The notes beneath the pieces were generated by a model, which saw nothing but the letters and a program-made list of their open reading frames with translations, was not told the origin of the DNA and searched no databases. Below, piece by piece: positions 1,795 to 31,463 of a stretch of DNA of 64,000 nt. The DNA is from Asterias rubens (Eukaryota): positions 10,618,160 through 10,682,159 of the forward strand of contig NC_047064.1 in assembly GCF_902459465.1 (NCBI RefSeq), in the 5' to 3' direction. Each line of letters opens with the position of its first letter. The stretch's first letter is position 1. The position numbers were made by a program, and so were the translations under genes.

Positions 1795-1877
1795 GTTACA
1801 ACTCAAGGTCCCATACAGCTAAATGAATGCAGTGCCAGCTCGGTACAAGAGAAGAGAGTTCGCATTCCCAAACGAAG
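1795..1877 (+). CDS. AGPS: AGPS internal exon (most 5' exon located). Encodes VTTQGPIQLNECSASSVQEKRVRIPKRR.
   Basis: Acceptor tttcttgtag|G and donor AAG|gtaaca. Matches the human AGPS N-terminal segment ...NECKARR...IPKKRQEV. Phase 0 start and phase 2 end, consistent with the next exon. Confidence 0.8.
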
Positions 1878-2277
1878 GTAACAATTATGAAGTTTATAAA
1901 TTTGCTAACAAATAACCTATGTCTGGTTCGTCATAGAGGGTTAACACTATCCAGGCAGATTGAGTACAAACCTGTCTTGGTCAAATAAAAAGAGTTGGCA
2001 TTTTAAACTGCTCTGGGTTCGATTTCACAAAGCAATAAAATCCGTCGTAAGACAAATTGTCAGTTTTACCATAGTGATTTGTATTGTGTGACATCACGCC
2101 ATAACCAGAGTTCCAAAGTTTGGGTGTTGAGTTACCAATCAGTGGATTTTGTGAAGAGTGAGGAAGGATCCCAGTAAATAACCCGTGGGGGTAAGGGGTT
2201 AACCATGTCTTTTACTTGGCTACGTGTAATTAACAATAACATGATTTAAGATTTGCTGAAATACTTGTTGTATACAG

Positions 2278-2367
2278 GCAGGAGGTATTAAAGTGGAATG
2301 GATGGGGTTATAGAGATTCAAAGTTTGAGATTGACGACGCCAGTAACTTCTCTTTCACTGGAAGCAG
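2278..2367 (+). CDS. AGPS: AGPS exon. Encodes (R)QEVLKWNGWGYRDSKFEIDDASNFSFTGS(R).
   Basis: The KWNGWGY(N/R)DSKF motif is diagnostic of alkyl-DHAP synthase. Acceptor tatacag| and donor CAG|gtaagt. Confidence 0.9.
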
Positions 2368-2436
2368 GTAAGTATTATATTTGTTCATATATGTGTTCAT
2401 GAATTAAAAACCTGGCAAAACAACTGAGACACAGTT

Positions 2437-2520
2437 GTTCTAAAACCCCCTCGACCCACGAACCTCGACTTTTGTGCAATTTTCTTTTCTGTACACCCAA
2501 ATTGCCACAATTTGTTTTTA
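2437..2520. repeat. Inverted partner of the 855-950 repeat.
   Basis: gttctaaaaccccctcgacccacgaacctcgacttttgtgcaattttcttttctgtacacccaaattgccac. Confidence 0.8.
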
Positions 2521-3252
2521 ATGTTACAGCAGTTTGAAAAAATCCATTCAACTTCAACCGCGTTTCTCTCTGAATGTAGTTTCTTGTCTGTTGAGCACCA
2601 TATGTCATTGTGTGAAAATGGTGACTGTCTGTGACTAGTTTCACTATTTATTTTAAAATGAAGTTGTGTTTGCATTAGATCTACAGACATAAACCAGATA
2701 TGGGAACAATTCCTGTTTGTAATGCTGTCTATTCCCATTTTCCTACATGAGCTCTGAAACTGTTGTTTTGGCAGAAGTAAAAGAGAATGTAGTGACTGCT
2801 CCTTTAAAGCAGTCAACCAATCAACACAGACCAGAGAAAAGTGACTGGTAGCTACAGGGAGTGTATGTGTATATAGTTTTTGCTGGTTTTGTAAACATGT
2901 GTGTTATGACGGCAGCCATAGTTTTTTTCTGTCGCAGTCTGACATGTGAAAAACCCAAACCAAAAGTTTAGCTTCATTGTTGCGTTTTACTAGCAGTTAT
3001 CTTCAACAGTTACAAGTTCATAATTTCGTCGTTTATTGTCATTGTTACGTCAACTCTGTGTACGTCTATTTTGTTTGTCTGAACACACGGAGAAACCGAA
3101 ACTTTCCCGAAATATAAACGTGCTTCAGTCCTGTTCCAGCGCCAAGAGGAAAAGTTCGTTCTTCAGATAGTGACAGTGCGGGTGAGTCATAAAGTAGTCA
3201 ATCTCTAACAACCATAATTACAACAAGTACATGCACTCTTTATTCGTTTTAG

Positions 3253-3340
3253 GTACAAAATTGCTGGTGAATTGCCGCACTTTAAAGCATGGATAGAATC
3301 AATAGAGGGAATAAATATCGACATGAAAGTAGATCCACAG
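3253..3340 (+). CDS. AGPS: AGPS exon. Encodes YKIAGELPHFKAWIESIEGINIDMKVDPQ.
   Basis: Matches human [26 protein letters not shown]. Acceptor cgttttag| and donor CAG|gtgagg. Supplied ORF 3272-3526 reads through into the intron. Confidence 0.88.
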
Positions 3341-3574
3341 GTGAGGCTTAAAGCAAATATAAAGCCAGGTTCATACTTCGCTGCAGGTTTTCGCTGCTAC
3401 ATTCGCAAGAGAGTTGAGCACAGCTCAAATCCTGCGAATTATTCATTGCAAATTTATGACCTCAACATTCTTTATCGCCTTCGCAGGAAGTATGAACCGG
3501 GCTTTATGCTTCCCACTTTAGTTTGATTTTAGATTTGTTTGCACTTGCAGGGTTTGCCCTTAAATTTGTTAATG

Positions 3575-28480: not shown

Positions 28481-28565
28481 AATTGCATAAACAAAACTAT
28501 CCTCCCTGATCTCAAACTTATTTTACAAATTTCATGTTCTGAATACCATATTTTCCTCCATCCAG

Positions 28566-28665
28566 AGTGACTCAGACGTACGACTCTGGAGCCTGTGTTT
28601 ACTTCTACTTTGCCTACATGTATCGTGGCCTTTCTAACCCAATTGAGGTGTATGAAGAGATTGAG
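28566..28665 (+). CDS. AGPS: AGPS exon. Encodes [33 protein letters not shown]. Its downstream intron uses a GC donor.
   Basis: Matches human [33 protein letters not shown]. Acceptor cctccatccag|. The donor is GAG|GCAAGT, the canonical GC-AG donor consensus. Reading on in frame meets a stop after 17 codons, and the next exon resumes exactly at the conserved AAAR. Confidence 0.85.
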
Positions 28666-29849
28666 GCAAGTATTGGTAATTATGCCGCAAAAAAAAATCA
28701 AAATAAAATTCATTAAACGTTTATTCCATACTCTTGTTGGAAAAAAAACAATTGTGAGAATTAAACAGTACATAGAAATTTAAAAAATCTAAAGTGCATT
28801 AAATTATACAAAAAAAAGCAATATAATCTAAAAGCAAATAATAAATTAATAACTAGGAATTAACTATGTACAAGACAGGAACGAGAGCATGAGGCTGTTA
28901 GATAAGCCGTGGCTTGTAGACAACAGCCTTTATACAGACAAGAAAACACACAAACAACCAAAAACAAACAAACAAACAAACAAATAAACATCGGAAGAAG
29001 AAGCAAGGGCAAGACAATTACACAATGACAATACAAAATACTGACGACAAAATACAAAGAATGTTAAACCAGGCTAACTGAAGACGACAAAAGAAAATAA
29101 ATAAGTGGAGAGAAAAGCTATGTTACATAGTGGGAGAGGAGGACTCTTTTGTAAACAAAATGTCCCCCTAAAAAAGCCAAATGATGAGTAACTAGCACTC
29201 TGCCCAAAAATGGAAACTAAGTATGATGAAGTAACGCAAGTAGCGGGATCTCAGAGAGCAATCATGTCCAAGCCATTGGCAGTGGTTTATGTTGACTTGT
29301 GTGTACTGTACTGCTGCAGTCTGGCACACTGATTACTACTGCAGTAGTGCAAACAAATTTCGTGATCGCTAACGTGAGTGGTAAAAAGTTTGTCTGATTT
29401 TTGGAGTAAAAGTGACATCACTAGTGCAAAATGCTAATACAAGGTGTATCCTTTGGTTTGTGACATTCATCTCTGAAAAAGTTATGAATTTGTCTAATAA
29501 TGATAACAAGATCAACAAAAGCAAAAAAAATTCTTATCAAATTATAAAGATTTTCGTTCACTAATATCTGAGCATTCTCCATGATCATGATCATAGAAAG
29601 ACATGGCTCTTACAGACTACTGAAATAATTTAACGTTGACAAGTGAGCAAAAAACTTAAATTTGCTGTAAAACATCTTGAAGTTGATAATAAATTTGATG
29701 TTAAATTGGTCTTTGAATGAGAGCTTTGTTGTGTGTATCACGCTGGAGTGGTCAGGCATTGTGTTCACAGGCATTGATTCATGTGGTTAAGTCAAAGTTC
29801 AAGTTAACACCAGGGTTAACAAGACAGTTCATTCAATTTCTATCACCAG

Positions 29850-29907
29850 GCTGCAGCTAGGGACGAGATCTTGGGTCTTGGAGGAAGTCTATCGCATCAC
29901 CATGGAG
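29850..29907 (+). CDS. AGPS: AGPS exon. Encodes AAARDEILGLGGSLSHHHG.
   Basis: Matches human AAAREEILANGGSLSHHHG(VGK). Acceptor ctatcaccag| and donor GAG|gtaaaa. Confidence 0.9.
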
Positions 29908-30390
29908 GTAAAAATATAAATCTTGTTGTTTTCTTATCAATATCAAGAGATAATTCGGTTTAATTGGTTATAAAATTCAAATTTACCTATCAAAAACCTG
30001 CATCACATTGCTTTCTCTCAAATGTGGCGCTTAGGCTCTGTTTTAAGTAGGGACCTTAAATTTGCTTTGGCTAGGTCTTGTTCACTGTGTCTGTTATTCT
30101 GCAAGTAATGAGGTGTAGTGGTTCGAATTAGATTTGATGGTTTAACAACTTATAACAGTTTACTCTGAAGACGGTTGGAGCATTTGTAATGTACTGATTG
30201 AAATATCAAGTTCTCAAAATCACCAGGGCCCGATTTCGTGGCTCTGCTTAATACCGCCCAATGCTGTGCTTACAATCACCATTCTTTGCGTTCTGTGAAA
30301 CCGCCGAATTTTTACACTAGCTGTGTCAAAGAGAAGATTGCAGAGTAACATGTTTTACACACTTGTACAAGGCCAGACGGCCACTTTAAA

Positions 30391-30770
30391 GGCAGTGGAC
30401 ACTATTGGTAATTACTCAAAATAATTATCAGCTTAAAACCTCACTTGGTAACGAGTAATGGGGAGAGGTTGATAGTATAAAACATTGTGAGAAACGGCTC
30501 CCTCTGAAGTGACGTACAGTTTTGAGAAAGAAGTAATTTTCCACGAATTTGATTTTGAGACCTCAAGTTTAGAACTCTTGAAATCAACCATCTAAACGCA
30601 CACAAGTTCGTATGACAAGGTTGTTTTTCTTTCATTGTTATCTCGCAAGTACGACGACCAATTGATCTCAAATTTTCACAGGTTTGTTACTTCATGCATA
30701 TGTTGAGATACACCAAGTGAGAACACTGGTCTTTGACAATTACCAATAGTGTCCACTGTCTTTAAGGTGA
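30391..30770 (-). mobile_element. MITE-C copy.
   Basis: Reverse orientation. Supplied ORFs 30441-30671 and 30676-30933 (-) lie inside it, so they are spurious. Confidence 0.8.
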
Positions 30771-31341
30771 AGGCTACACATAACCGATTTGGGAAACGAC
30801 CAAAATCAACTGTCACCAGGGGCATGTTGCCATCTACTCCTGGGGCTGAAACAGGGTTATTCCTTTCACAGTCTGCAAGGACGTAGGTATGGGTATCATC
30901 CACTAGGAGCCTGGTTGGTGAAGCAGAATGCACTATATACCTGTAGCCCTCACTTTGGTCATATTCATAGTCAATATTTAAGTCTTTATATTAGTCACAT
31001 TCAAAATGTTCAATATATTTTGAACCATCCTCATAAAAGTGTGGCCGGGTTGGCGGAATGGTATCTTTCCTTGCATTCAACTTCTAGGATACCAGGTGGA
31101 ATCACGCCGAGGGCACTGTAGGCTTTCAGTCTCCACTTGACTGCGTGGGTTTATCCTGGAATAATTCTCTGGGGTTTTCCTCCCACATCTAAAGCTGAAA
31201 CTTCCTTCCTTGTCTTTTCTTCCTTGGGTTCTTGGTTAATACAGTGATTAAGTTTCCCTTTTCTGAGAGTCCTTGGCTTCACAACCACAGTTAATAAATG
31301 AAATGGTTTTTAATTGCACAATTTCCACTTTTTTTAACCAG

Positions 31342-31463
31342 TTGGTAAGGTGCGGAAACAGTGGATGCCAAAAGCCATCTCGCAGCCCGGCTTGGATACG
31401 CTACGAGCAATCAAGAAGCATCTCGACCCTCAGAATATCTTTGGGAATGATTGCCTGCTCTGA
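31342..31463 (+). CDS. AGPS: AGPS terminal coding exon. Encodes VGKVRKQWMPKAISQPGLDTLRAIKKHLDPQNIFGNDCLL*.
   Basis: Matches the human C-terminus [40 protein letters not shown]. Acceptor ttttttaaccag| and stop TGA at 31461-31463. I did not see a canonical AATAAA within ~250 bp downstream. Confidence 0.9.

What the first reader, a model, noticed from the sequence alone, without database searches (positions are those of the whole stretch)
1795..31463. AGPS (alkyl-DHAP synthase) gene: 21 phase-consistent exons found, N-terminal exon(s) not located
The exons 1795-1877, 2278-2367, 3253-3340, 8143-8263, 9219-9293, 11205-11276, 12350-12429, 13289-13369, 13745-13870, 14797-14850, 15415-15597, 17705-17756, 18751-18827, 19350-19412, 21603-21652, 24145-24214, 26553-26614, 27998-28087, 28566-28665, 29850-29907 and 31342-31463 splice into one 1797-nt ORF. 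Every junction is phase-compatible. The translation matches the recalled human AGPS sequence segment by segment ([56 protein letters not shown]...[31 protein letters not shown], ...NIFGN..LL*). What I could not find is the exon that should carry the start codon and the PTS2 signal (R[LVIQ]xx[LVIHQ][LSGAK]x[HQ][LAF]) upstream of 1795. The first located exon begins in phase 0 at the residues equivalent to human ~NECKARR.
Basis: partly seen in the sequence, partly recalled or inferred. Interest (0 to 1): 0.5.

Follow-up and report, generated by a model that had tools for sequence, protein, structure and literature searches.

The report
Sea-star AGPS gene, exons 2–22
The region holds exons 2–22 of the already-annotated common-starfish (Asterias rubens) gene for the peroxisomal ether-lipid enzyme AGPS, and the 'missing' first exon with the start codon and targeting signal lies a few hundred bases beyond the left edge of the window, so the finding is correct but ordinary.

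Summary
The 21 listed intervals splice into a 1797-nt open frame with no internal stops. All acceptors are AG, 19 of the 20 donors are GT, and one is a conserved GC. The 598-aa product is identical to residues 54–651 of Asterias rubens AGPS (RefSeq XP_033625016.1) and differs at 7 positions from the A. amurensis orthologue. It aligns end to end with the guinea-pig AGPS crystal structure (E=6.5e-269). Both FAD-oxidase domains and the catalytic Arg/Arg/Tyr/His-His-His residues are intact.

One coding exon is missing: 159 nt, 53 codons, ending in phase 0, MAARERTNVILGHLKPQ…KRGDET. It is not in the window on either strand. In the collinear A. amurensis locus its donor lies 242 nt before the base that aligns with window position 1, so the exon falls just off the left edge.

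The Asterias PTS2 is RTNVILGHL. The protein has no C-terminal PTS1.

This is an annotated housekeeping gene, correctly read. Novelty: already known. Interest: very low.

The parts
1..1794 (+). 3' part of intron 1 (exon 1 lies upstream of the window)
   Evidence: Window 1-384 aligns at 97% to A. amurensis L001 10402-10785, which is 242 nt after the exon-1 donor at L001 10159/10160. There is no match to the 53-aa exon-1 peptide anywhere in the window (best E=0.78).
1795..1877 (+). AGPS coding exon 2 (VTTQGP...IPKR), enters in phase 0
   Evidence: AG acceptor, GT donor. Equals L001 12792-12874, 82/83 nt. tblastn 100% to P0001 residues 54-81.
2278..2367 (+). AGPS exon 3 (contains KWNGWGY)
   Evidence: 89/90 nt vs A. 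amurensis
3253..3340 (+). AGPS exon 4
   Evidence: 85/88
8143..8263 (+). AGPS exon 5
   Evidence: 120/121
9219..9293 (+). AGPS exon 6
   Evidence: 73/75
11205..11276 (+). AGPS exon 7
   Evidence: 70/72
12350..12429 (+). AGPS exon 8
   Evidence: 78/80
13289..13369 (+). AGPS exon 9
   Evidence: 81/81
13745..13870 (+). AGPS exon 10 (FAD_binding_4 region)
   Evidence: 124/126
14797..14850 (+). AGPS exon 11
   Evidence: 54/54
15415..15597 (+). AGPS exon 12
   Evidence: 181/183
17705..17756 (+). AGPS exon 13; codon 17726-17728 = Arg412 (guinea-pig Arg419, Dictyostelium Arg352)
18751..18827 (+). AGPS exon 14
   Evidence: 76/77
19350..19412 (+). AGPS exon 15
   Evidence: 61/63
21603..21652 (+). AGPS exon 16
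   Evidence: 50/50
24145..24214 (+). AGPS exon 17; codon 24212-24214 = Arg508 (Dictyostelium Arg447)
26553..26614 (+). AGPS exon 18
   Evidence: 61/62
27998..28087 (+). AGPS exon 19
   Evidence: 88/90
28566..28665 (+). AGPS exon 20, followed by a GC (not GT) donor; codon 28600-28602 = Tyr571 (guinea-pig Tyr578, Dictyostelium Tyr508)
   Evidence: GC donor in the window and conserved in A. amurensis; residue mapping
29850..29907 (+). AGPS exon 21; codons 29895-29903 = His608-His609-His610 (guinea-pig 615-617)
31342..31463 (+). AGPS exon 22, coding part, ending ...NIFGNDCLL + TGA; no PTS1 tripeptide
   Evidence: (122/122)
31464..31835 (+). probable 3' UTR up to the first AATAAA signals (31819, 31830); inferred only
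   Evidence: motif positions; no transcript evidence available

Best explanation
Window 1795-31463 (+) is the Asterias rubens AGPS gene from coding exon 2 to the stop codon, that is 21 of its 22 coding exons. AGPS is alkyldihydroxyacetonephosphate (alkylglycerone-phosphate) synthase. The product is a VAO/PCMH-type flavoenzyme that, inside peroxisomes, swaps the acyl chain of acyl-DHAP for a fatty alcohol, forming the ether bond of plasmalogen precursors. The FAD acts as an electrophilic scaffold and the active-site Tyr as a base. The start codon and the peroxisomal targeting signal (PTS2-type, RTNVILGHL) are on exon 1, which lies roughly 240-400 nt upstream of the first base of the window. Shown here: the exon structure, the identity to the RefSeq protein, the domain content, and the conservation of catalytic residues. 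Inferred from the family: the enzymatic activity, PEX7-dependent import, and the exact distance to exon 1 in A. rubens.
For: The ORF and splice sites are intact. The translation is 598/598 identical to A. rubens XP_033625016.1 residues 54-651 and 591/598 to A. amurensis XP_071788558.1 with no gaps. Exon transfer to the A. amurensis locus reproduces that annotated protein exactly. PDB 4bby guinea-pig AGPS matches at E=6.5e-269, collinear over chain residues 82-657 of 658. Dictyostelium ADPS 2uuu matches at E~1e-92, while the next family (D-lactate dehydrogenase) reaches only 1e-27. Pfam finds FAD_binding_4 (4.6e-36) and FAD-oxidase_C (5.4e-48). Arg412, Arg508, Tyr571 and His608-610 align with the residues that mutagenesis and mutant structures mark as catalytic (PMC3509576). 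Purifying selection is evident. Exons are 98.6% identical with zero indels and 19 synonymous versus 7 non-synonymous changes, whereas introns are 92.7% identical in aligned columns and carry many indels. Exon 1 was located in A. amurensis at L001 10001-10159, and window position 1 equals L001 10402.
Against: No transcript data were available, so the splicing rests on sequence, on conservation and on agreement with RefSeq models, which are themselves partly predictions. The A. rubens genomic sequence upstream of the window could not be retrieved, so the position of exon 1 is extrapolated from a congener. That congener's intron 1 carries a hairpin-like inverted repeat (L001 ~10246-10395) that may be lineage-specific. 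The PTS2 is non-canonical at position 2.
Confidence: 0.97

Rival explanations
1. An alternative first exon inside the window (the ATG at 1528, ORF MVRLLNLLPYL..., or the one-codon exon ATG|GTGAGG) starts the protein, giving either a degenerate PTS2 or a PTS2-less isoform.
For: RLLNLLPYL at 1534-1560 matches 8 of the 9 PTS2 positions (Tyr in place of His/Gln at position 8). ATG|GTGAGG is a plausible phase-0 donor compatible with exon 2.
Against: In A. amurensis a 4-nt insertion directly after the ATG (ATGCAAGGTGAGG) shifts the frame into a stop and puts the donor out of phase. Both RefSeq models use the upstream exon instead. The ORF ends in a stop with no in-phase donor after the motif.
Confidence: 0.02
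2. The region is a non-functional duplicate (pseudogene or paralogue) of AGPS and not the working gene.
For: None specific. The idea arises only because the start codon is absent from the window.
Against: The 598-codon frame across 21 exons is uninterrupted, with all splice sites intact. It is identical to the single RefSeq A. rubens AGPS. Non-synonymous changes are 7 against 19 synonymous, and exons are far better conserved than introns. The catalytic residues are intact. The locus is syntenic with A. amurensis AGPS.
Confidence: 0.01
3. Exon 1 is inside the window but too diverged, or on an unexpected strand or order, for the reader to see.
Against: A tblastn of the 53-aa exon-1 peptide, which is identical in both Asterias species, against both strands of all 64 kb gives nothing better than E=0.78. 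The window's first bases align to mid-intron 1 of the congener.
Confidence: 0.005

Closest known systems
Asterias rubens alkyldihydroxyacetonephosphate synthase, peroxisomal-like (RefSeq XP_033625016.1, 651 aa)
   Same: Residues 54-651 are identical to the window's spliced translation, 598/598. This is the same gene.
   Different: Nothing within the window. The protein's first 53 residues (exon 1) are encoded outside it.
Asterias amurensis AGPS (XP_071788558.1; locus CP134956.1, fetched as L001)
   Same: Same 22-coding-exon structure, with identical exon lengths and splice dinucleotides, including the GC donor. Exon 1 peptide is identical. Protein 591/598 identical.
   Different: 7 amino-acid substitutions. 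Introns are about 93% identical with many indels and different repeat insertions.
Guinea-pig / human AGPS (PDB 4BBY and related entries)
   Same: Collinear over chain residues 82-657 with a single 1-residue gap. Same two FAD-oxidase domains, the AGPS-specific N-terminal region (KWNGWGY) and the catalytic Arg419, Tyr578 and His615-617 equivalents. N-terminal PTS2 and no PTS1.
   Different: The N-terminal presequence is unrelated in sequence apart from the PTS2. The Asterias PTS2 has Thr at position 2 instead of Leu.
Dictyostelium discoideum ADPS (PDB 2UUU)
   Same: Same fold family and the same catalytic Arg352/Arg447/Tyr508 equivalents.
   Different: Much more distant (E~1e-92, with several indels).

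Membership tests
AGPS / ADPS (alkylglycerone-phosphate synthase, EC 2.5.1.26) | PCMH/VAO-type FAD-binding domain followed by the FAD-linked oxidase C-terminal (cap) domain | tested here: met
   Pfam PF01565 E=4.6e-36 (residues 146-286 of the 598-aa product) and PF02913 E=5.4e-48 (325-592)
AGPS / ADPS (alkylglycerone-phosphate synthase, EC 2.5.1.26) | Best and end-to-end similarity to experimentally characterised AGPS, including the AGPS-specific N-terminal region, as opposed to other VAO-family enzymes | tested here: met
   4bby E=6.5e-269 over chain residues 82-657 and 2uuu E~1e-92, against D-lactate dehydrogenase at 4.6e-27 covering only the FAD domain. 3779 homologues with E<=1e-100, and among the 120 best listed the source-given names are AGPS/ADAS or generic ('hypothetical', 'unnamed')
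AGPS / ADPS (alkylglycerone-phosphate synthase, EC 2.5.1.26) | Catalytic residues: active-site Tyr (Cp Tyr578 / Dd Tyr508), two Arg (Cp Arg419 / Dd Arg352; Dd Arg447) and the His-His-His loop | tested here: met
   Tyr571, Arg412, Arg508 and His608-610 are all conserved in the alignments. Their codons are located in the window. The roles of the residues come from PMC3509576 and from the mutant chains 4bca (Y->F) and 4bc7 (R->H) visible
AGPS / ADPS (alkylglycerone-phosphate synthase, EC 2.5.1.26) | Peroxisomal targeting signal (N-terminal PTS2 in deuterostomes, or C-terminal PTS1 in lineages lacking it) | tested here: inconclusive
   No PTS1 (the C-terminus is ...DCLL) and no PTS2 within the window. 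Exon 1 of the identical RefSeq protein carries RTNVILGHL at residues 6-14. This fits R-x6-H-L with a hydrophobic position 5, but Thr at position 2 is outside [RK]-[LVI]-x5-[HQ]-[LAF] (PMC7710942). It is the only Thr among the 59 PTS2-like orthologues
AGPS / ADPS (alkylglycerone-phosphate synthase, EC 2.5.1.26) | Alkyl-DHAP synthase activity with non-covalently bound FAD | not testable with these tools
   Requires enzyme assay
Expressed, correctly spliced gene | Transcripts joining the 22 exons as modelled | not tested
   No RNA-seq or EST resource was available. Support is indirect: identity with two RefSeq models and conserved splice sites

The most novel reading that the evidence does not exclude
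The only mildly non-standard point is that Asterias AGPS, which has no PTS1, appears to rely on a PTS2 with Thr at position 2 (RTNVILGHL). This residue is allowed by neither the Petriv nor the Kunze consensus, and it is unique among the 59 PTS2-bearing AGPS orthologues examined. If it is a functional PEX7 ligand, it slightly widens the PTS2 definition. This signal lies outside the window.
Probability: 0.7. Interest if true: 0.12.

Novelty: already known. Interest (0 to 1): 0.04.

Why it matters
It matters very little beyond quality control. The result shows that the first-stage reader can reconstruct a 21-exon metazoan gene exactly from raw sequence, and that the 'missing' exon is a window-edge effect and not biology. 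AGPS is the committed ether-bond-forming enzyme of plasmalogen synthesis, and its loss in humans causes rhizomelic chondrodysplasia punctata type 3 (PMC3509576). The echinoderm orthologue is conventional and already present in RefSeq.

Tried and rejected
(1) A regex scan for PTS2 in all + frames of 1-4000 found only an out-of-context hit at 3030 and nothing upstream of exon 2.

(2) The near-PTS2 ORF at 1528 (MVRLLNLLPYL) and the one-codon ATG|GTGAGG exon were rejected, because the frame and phase are destroyed by a 4-nt indel in A. amurensis.

(3) A tblastn of the exon-1 peptide against the whole window gave chance-level hits only.

(4) I tried to fetch the A. rubens locus itself through its exact protein, but it is not on record in the contig index. 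The upstream distance therefore had to be inferred from A. amurensis.

(5) A Pfam scan of the four longest downstream ORFs gave no hits.

No P-loop or switch-I exon was found in the window.

(7) I considered whether the Rfam/ARAGORN tRNA-Ser in the 4.8-kb intron is a real nested tRNA gene. I rejected this because it has no long variable arm, its fold is no better than shuffles (z=-0.56), and it is part of a dispersed repeat.
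Full report
**Observation**

I spliced the 21 intervals exactly as given. They sum to 1797 nt and translate without an internal stop to a 598-residue protein ending in TGA at 31461-31463. All 21 acceptors are AG. Of the 20 donors, 19 are GT, and the one after 28665 is GC. 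The window is AT-rich (about 38% GC) with short exons (50-183 nt) and introns of 0.4-4.8 kb, which is a typical invertebrate-deuterostome gene layout.

**Identity**

- Against all PDB chains, the product matches guinea-pig AGPS (4bby) at E=6.5e-269. The alignment is collinear from chain residue 82 to 657 of 658 with a single one-residue gap.
- Dictyostelium ADPS (2uuu) follows at about 1e-92.
- The next family, D-lactate dehydrogenase, reaches only 4.6e-27 and covers only the FAD domain.
- Pfam finds FAD_binding_4 and FAD-oxidase_C.

**Organism and annotation status**

A search of the 5.8-billion-protein collection gives Asterias amurensis AGPS (651 aa) at 99% identity as the top hit. Other echinoderms and a hemichordate follow at 68-74%. 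The same 90% cluster contains Asterias rubens XP_033625016.1. The window's translation is identical, 598/598, to residues 54-651 of the A. rubens protein, and differs from the A. amurensis protein at 7 positions with no gaps. The window is therefore A. rubens DNA, or something indistinguishable from it, and the gene is already in RefSeq.

**Exon boundaries**

- All 21 have the same length and the same flanking dinucleotides, including the GC donor.
- With L001 10001-10159 prepended, they translate exactly to the annotated A. amurensis protein.
- Exons are 98.6% identical between the two species (1771/1797 nt, no indels, 19 synonymous and 7 non-synonymous differences).
- The 20 introns are 92.7% identical over alignable columns and differ in length by up to 1.1 kb. 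This is the signature of purifying selection on a working gene.

**The missing N-terminal exon**

A tblastn of this peptide against both strands of the whole window finds nothing better than E=0.78. In A. amurensis it is a single exon at L001 10001-10159, followed by GTAGGT. Window positions 1-384 align at 97% to L001 10402-10785, and the first 60 bases can be read off as near-identical.

By collinearity, then, the exon ends about 243 nt and starts about 401 nt before the first base of the window. Positions 1-1794 are the 3' part of intron 1.

The distance is an extrapolation, for two reasons. I could not retrieve the A. rubens flank. The A. amurensis interval also contains a roughly 150-nt hairpin-like inverted repeat that might be lineage-specific.

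**A decoy inside the window**

At 1528 an ATG opens MVRLLNLLPYL…, whose RLLNLLPYL matches 8 of the 9 PTS2 positions. ATG|GTGAGG would also be a phase-0 donor. In A. amurensis a 4-nt insertion right after the ATG moves the frame into a stop and the donor out of phase, although the surrounding intron is 96% identical. I treat it as chance.

**Targeting**

The canonical PTS2 is [RK]-[LVI]-x5-[HQ]-[LAF] with a hydrophobic residue at position 5 (PMC7710942).

Among the 120 best orthologues, 59 have a PTS2-like nonapeptide in the same register. Position 2 is Leu in 56 of them, Val in 1, Ile in 1, and Thr only in Asterias. Other ambulacrarians deviate at position 9 instead (Val, Ile, and in one further sequence outside the 59, Cys).

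Orthologues with a PTS2 end in …NLL/CLL. Those without one (molluscs, annelids, brachiopod, nemertean, amphioxus) mostly end in SKL, AKL or ARL, which is a PTS1. The Asterias protein ends …DCLL, so it has no PTS1 and must depend on exon 1. Whether RTx5HL binds PEX7 normally is untested.

**Mechanism**

By homology, the enzyme exchanges the acyl group of acyl-DHAP for a fatty alcohol. Oxidised FAD forms a covalent N5 adduct with the DHAP carbanion, which is generated by an active-site Tyr (PMC3509576). The residues shown by mutagenesis (Dictyostelium R352, R447, Y508), or captured as mutant crystal structures of the guinea-pig enzyme (R419H in 4bc7, Y578F in 4bca), align with the following sea-star residues:

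| A. rubens residue | Window codon(s) |
|---|---|
| Arg412 | 17726-17728 |
| Arg508 | 24212-24214 |
| Tyr571 | 28600-28602 |
| His608-610 (His-His-His loop) | 29895-29903 |

Activity itself is inferred, not shown.

**Surroundings**

- **Upstream neighbour.** In A. amurensis the upstream neighbour on the same strand is a PARP4-like gene (PARP, VIT, VWA domains).
- **Intronic repeats.** The AGPS introns carry many copies of a dispersed repeat of about 140-390 bp, in both orientations.
- **tRNA-like element.** There is a 640-bp A. rubens-specific insertion in the 4.8-kb intron. It contains a 74-nt tRNA-like element that ARAGORN calls Ser(AGA) and Rfam scores at 48 bits. The element has no long variable arm, folds no better than shuffled sequence (z=-0.56), and has partial copies elsewhere. 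I read it as a tRNA-derived repeat, not a gene.
- **Rab-like fragment.** About 8 kb downstream of the stop codon, on the + strand, two exons encode a Rab32/38-like GTPase fragment. The first is 39644-39826 (Pfam Ras E=1.6e-10). The second is about 40860-40990. Splicing them reconstitutes the NKxD motif. The catalytic Gln is Arg, and no P-loop exon could be found in the window, although A. amurensis has one in its downstream flank. The only database relative is an 86-aa ORF from a short ENA contig. It may be an unannotated or decaying gene, and I did not resolve it.
- **LINE fragments.** Fragments of LINE reverse transcriptase lie at 43.1-43.7 kb (-) and 57.8-58.6 kb (+).

**Verdict**

The observation and the interpretation are both correct. 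The one open item, the start-codon/PTS2 exon, is explained by the window boundary. The gene is an ordinary, already-annotated orthologue, so it is already known and of very low interest.

Noticed in passing
window 5866-5939 (+), within the insertion 5371-6009 in the intron between 3340 and 8143: A 74-nt tRNA-like sequence, called tRNA-Ser(AGA) by ARAGORN and scoring 48.4 bits with Rfam RF00005. It has no long variable arm and its fold z-score is -0.56. It sits in a 640-bp insertion that is absent at the syntenic A. amurensis site, with partial copies at 13115-13224, 40672-40755 and L001 22717-22897. It is probably a tRNA-derived SINE-like repeat and not a tRNA gene.
   Followed up: partly
window, e.g. 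9343-9727, 11854-12255, 12833-12971, 16513-16850, 19100-19232, 21853-21983, 30629-30766, 45841-45973, 56747-56883, 61420-61543: A dispersed repeat family (core of about 140 bp, up to about 390 bp) present in at least 18 copies in both orientations in the window, and many times in the A. amurensis locus. Copies are 72-88% identical. It was not classified.
   Followed up: partly
window 39644-39826 and ~40860-40990 (+): Two exons of a Rab32/38-like small GTPase lie about 8 kb downstream of AGPS (Pfam Ras E=1.6e-10), and splicing reconstitutes NKSD. The catalytic Gln is Arg (GRERF). No P-loop exon was detected in the window, although A. amurensis has MNKKLFKIIIVGESLVGKT... at L001 ~47951-48064. 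No annotated protein contains these exons. The only hit is an 86-aa ENA ORF, 80% identical, with GQERF. Possibly an unannotated or degenerating gene.
   Followed up: partly
L001 10016-10042 (A. amurensis exon 1; identical peptide in A. rubens, outside the window): The AGPS PTS2 is RTNVILGHL. Thr at position 2 is unique among 59 PTS2-bearing AGPS orthologues (56 Leu, 1 Val, 1 Ile) and outside the published consensus. Other ambulacrarian AGPS deviate at position 9 (Val, Ile, Cys).
   Followed up: partly
protein set P0001-P0120 (not the window): Across AGPS orthologues the targeting signals are nearly mutually exclusive. Sequences with an N-terminal PTS2 end in NLL/CLL, while those lacking a PTS2 (molluscs, annelids, brachiopod, nemertean, amphioxus) mostly end in SKL/AKL/ARL. 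Diadema antillarum has two models (P0004 with a PTS2, P0005 with an unrelated N-terminus).
   Followed up: partly
window 43069-43683 (-) and 57792-58562 (+): Fragments of non-LTR retrotransposon reverse transcriptase. The first has an FADD-motif segment (Pfam RVT_1 E=6.7e-7). The second is a 246-aa ORF containing LVRPHLDYCVQAW, with no Pfam hit.
   Followed up: partly
window 5729-5806 and 40769-40823: A near-perfect palindrome of about 78 nt (…AATAGATGTTAAATTTGCATCGGGGATAAA…TTTATCCCCGATGCAAATTTAACATCTATT…), with a second copy next to the Rab-like exon. It may be the terminal structure of a small mobile element.
   Followed up: no
window 50004-50525; 22728-22822; 36133-36280: Tandem repeats. 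There is a roughly 26-nt unit repeated about 20 times, with higher-order periods of 45/96/122 nt, at 50.0-50.5 kb. A perfect 10-mer (TAAACTCCTG) is repeated 9.5 times in an AGPS intron. A 15/31-nt C-rich array lies at 36.1 kb.
   Followed up: no
window ~39198 onward vs L001 ~45974 onward: Collinearity between A. rubens and A. amurensis breaks down about 7.7 kb downstream of AGPS. After that point only dispersed repeats align, so there is a structural difference between the species, or between the assemblies, around the Rab-like gene.
   Followed up: partly
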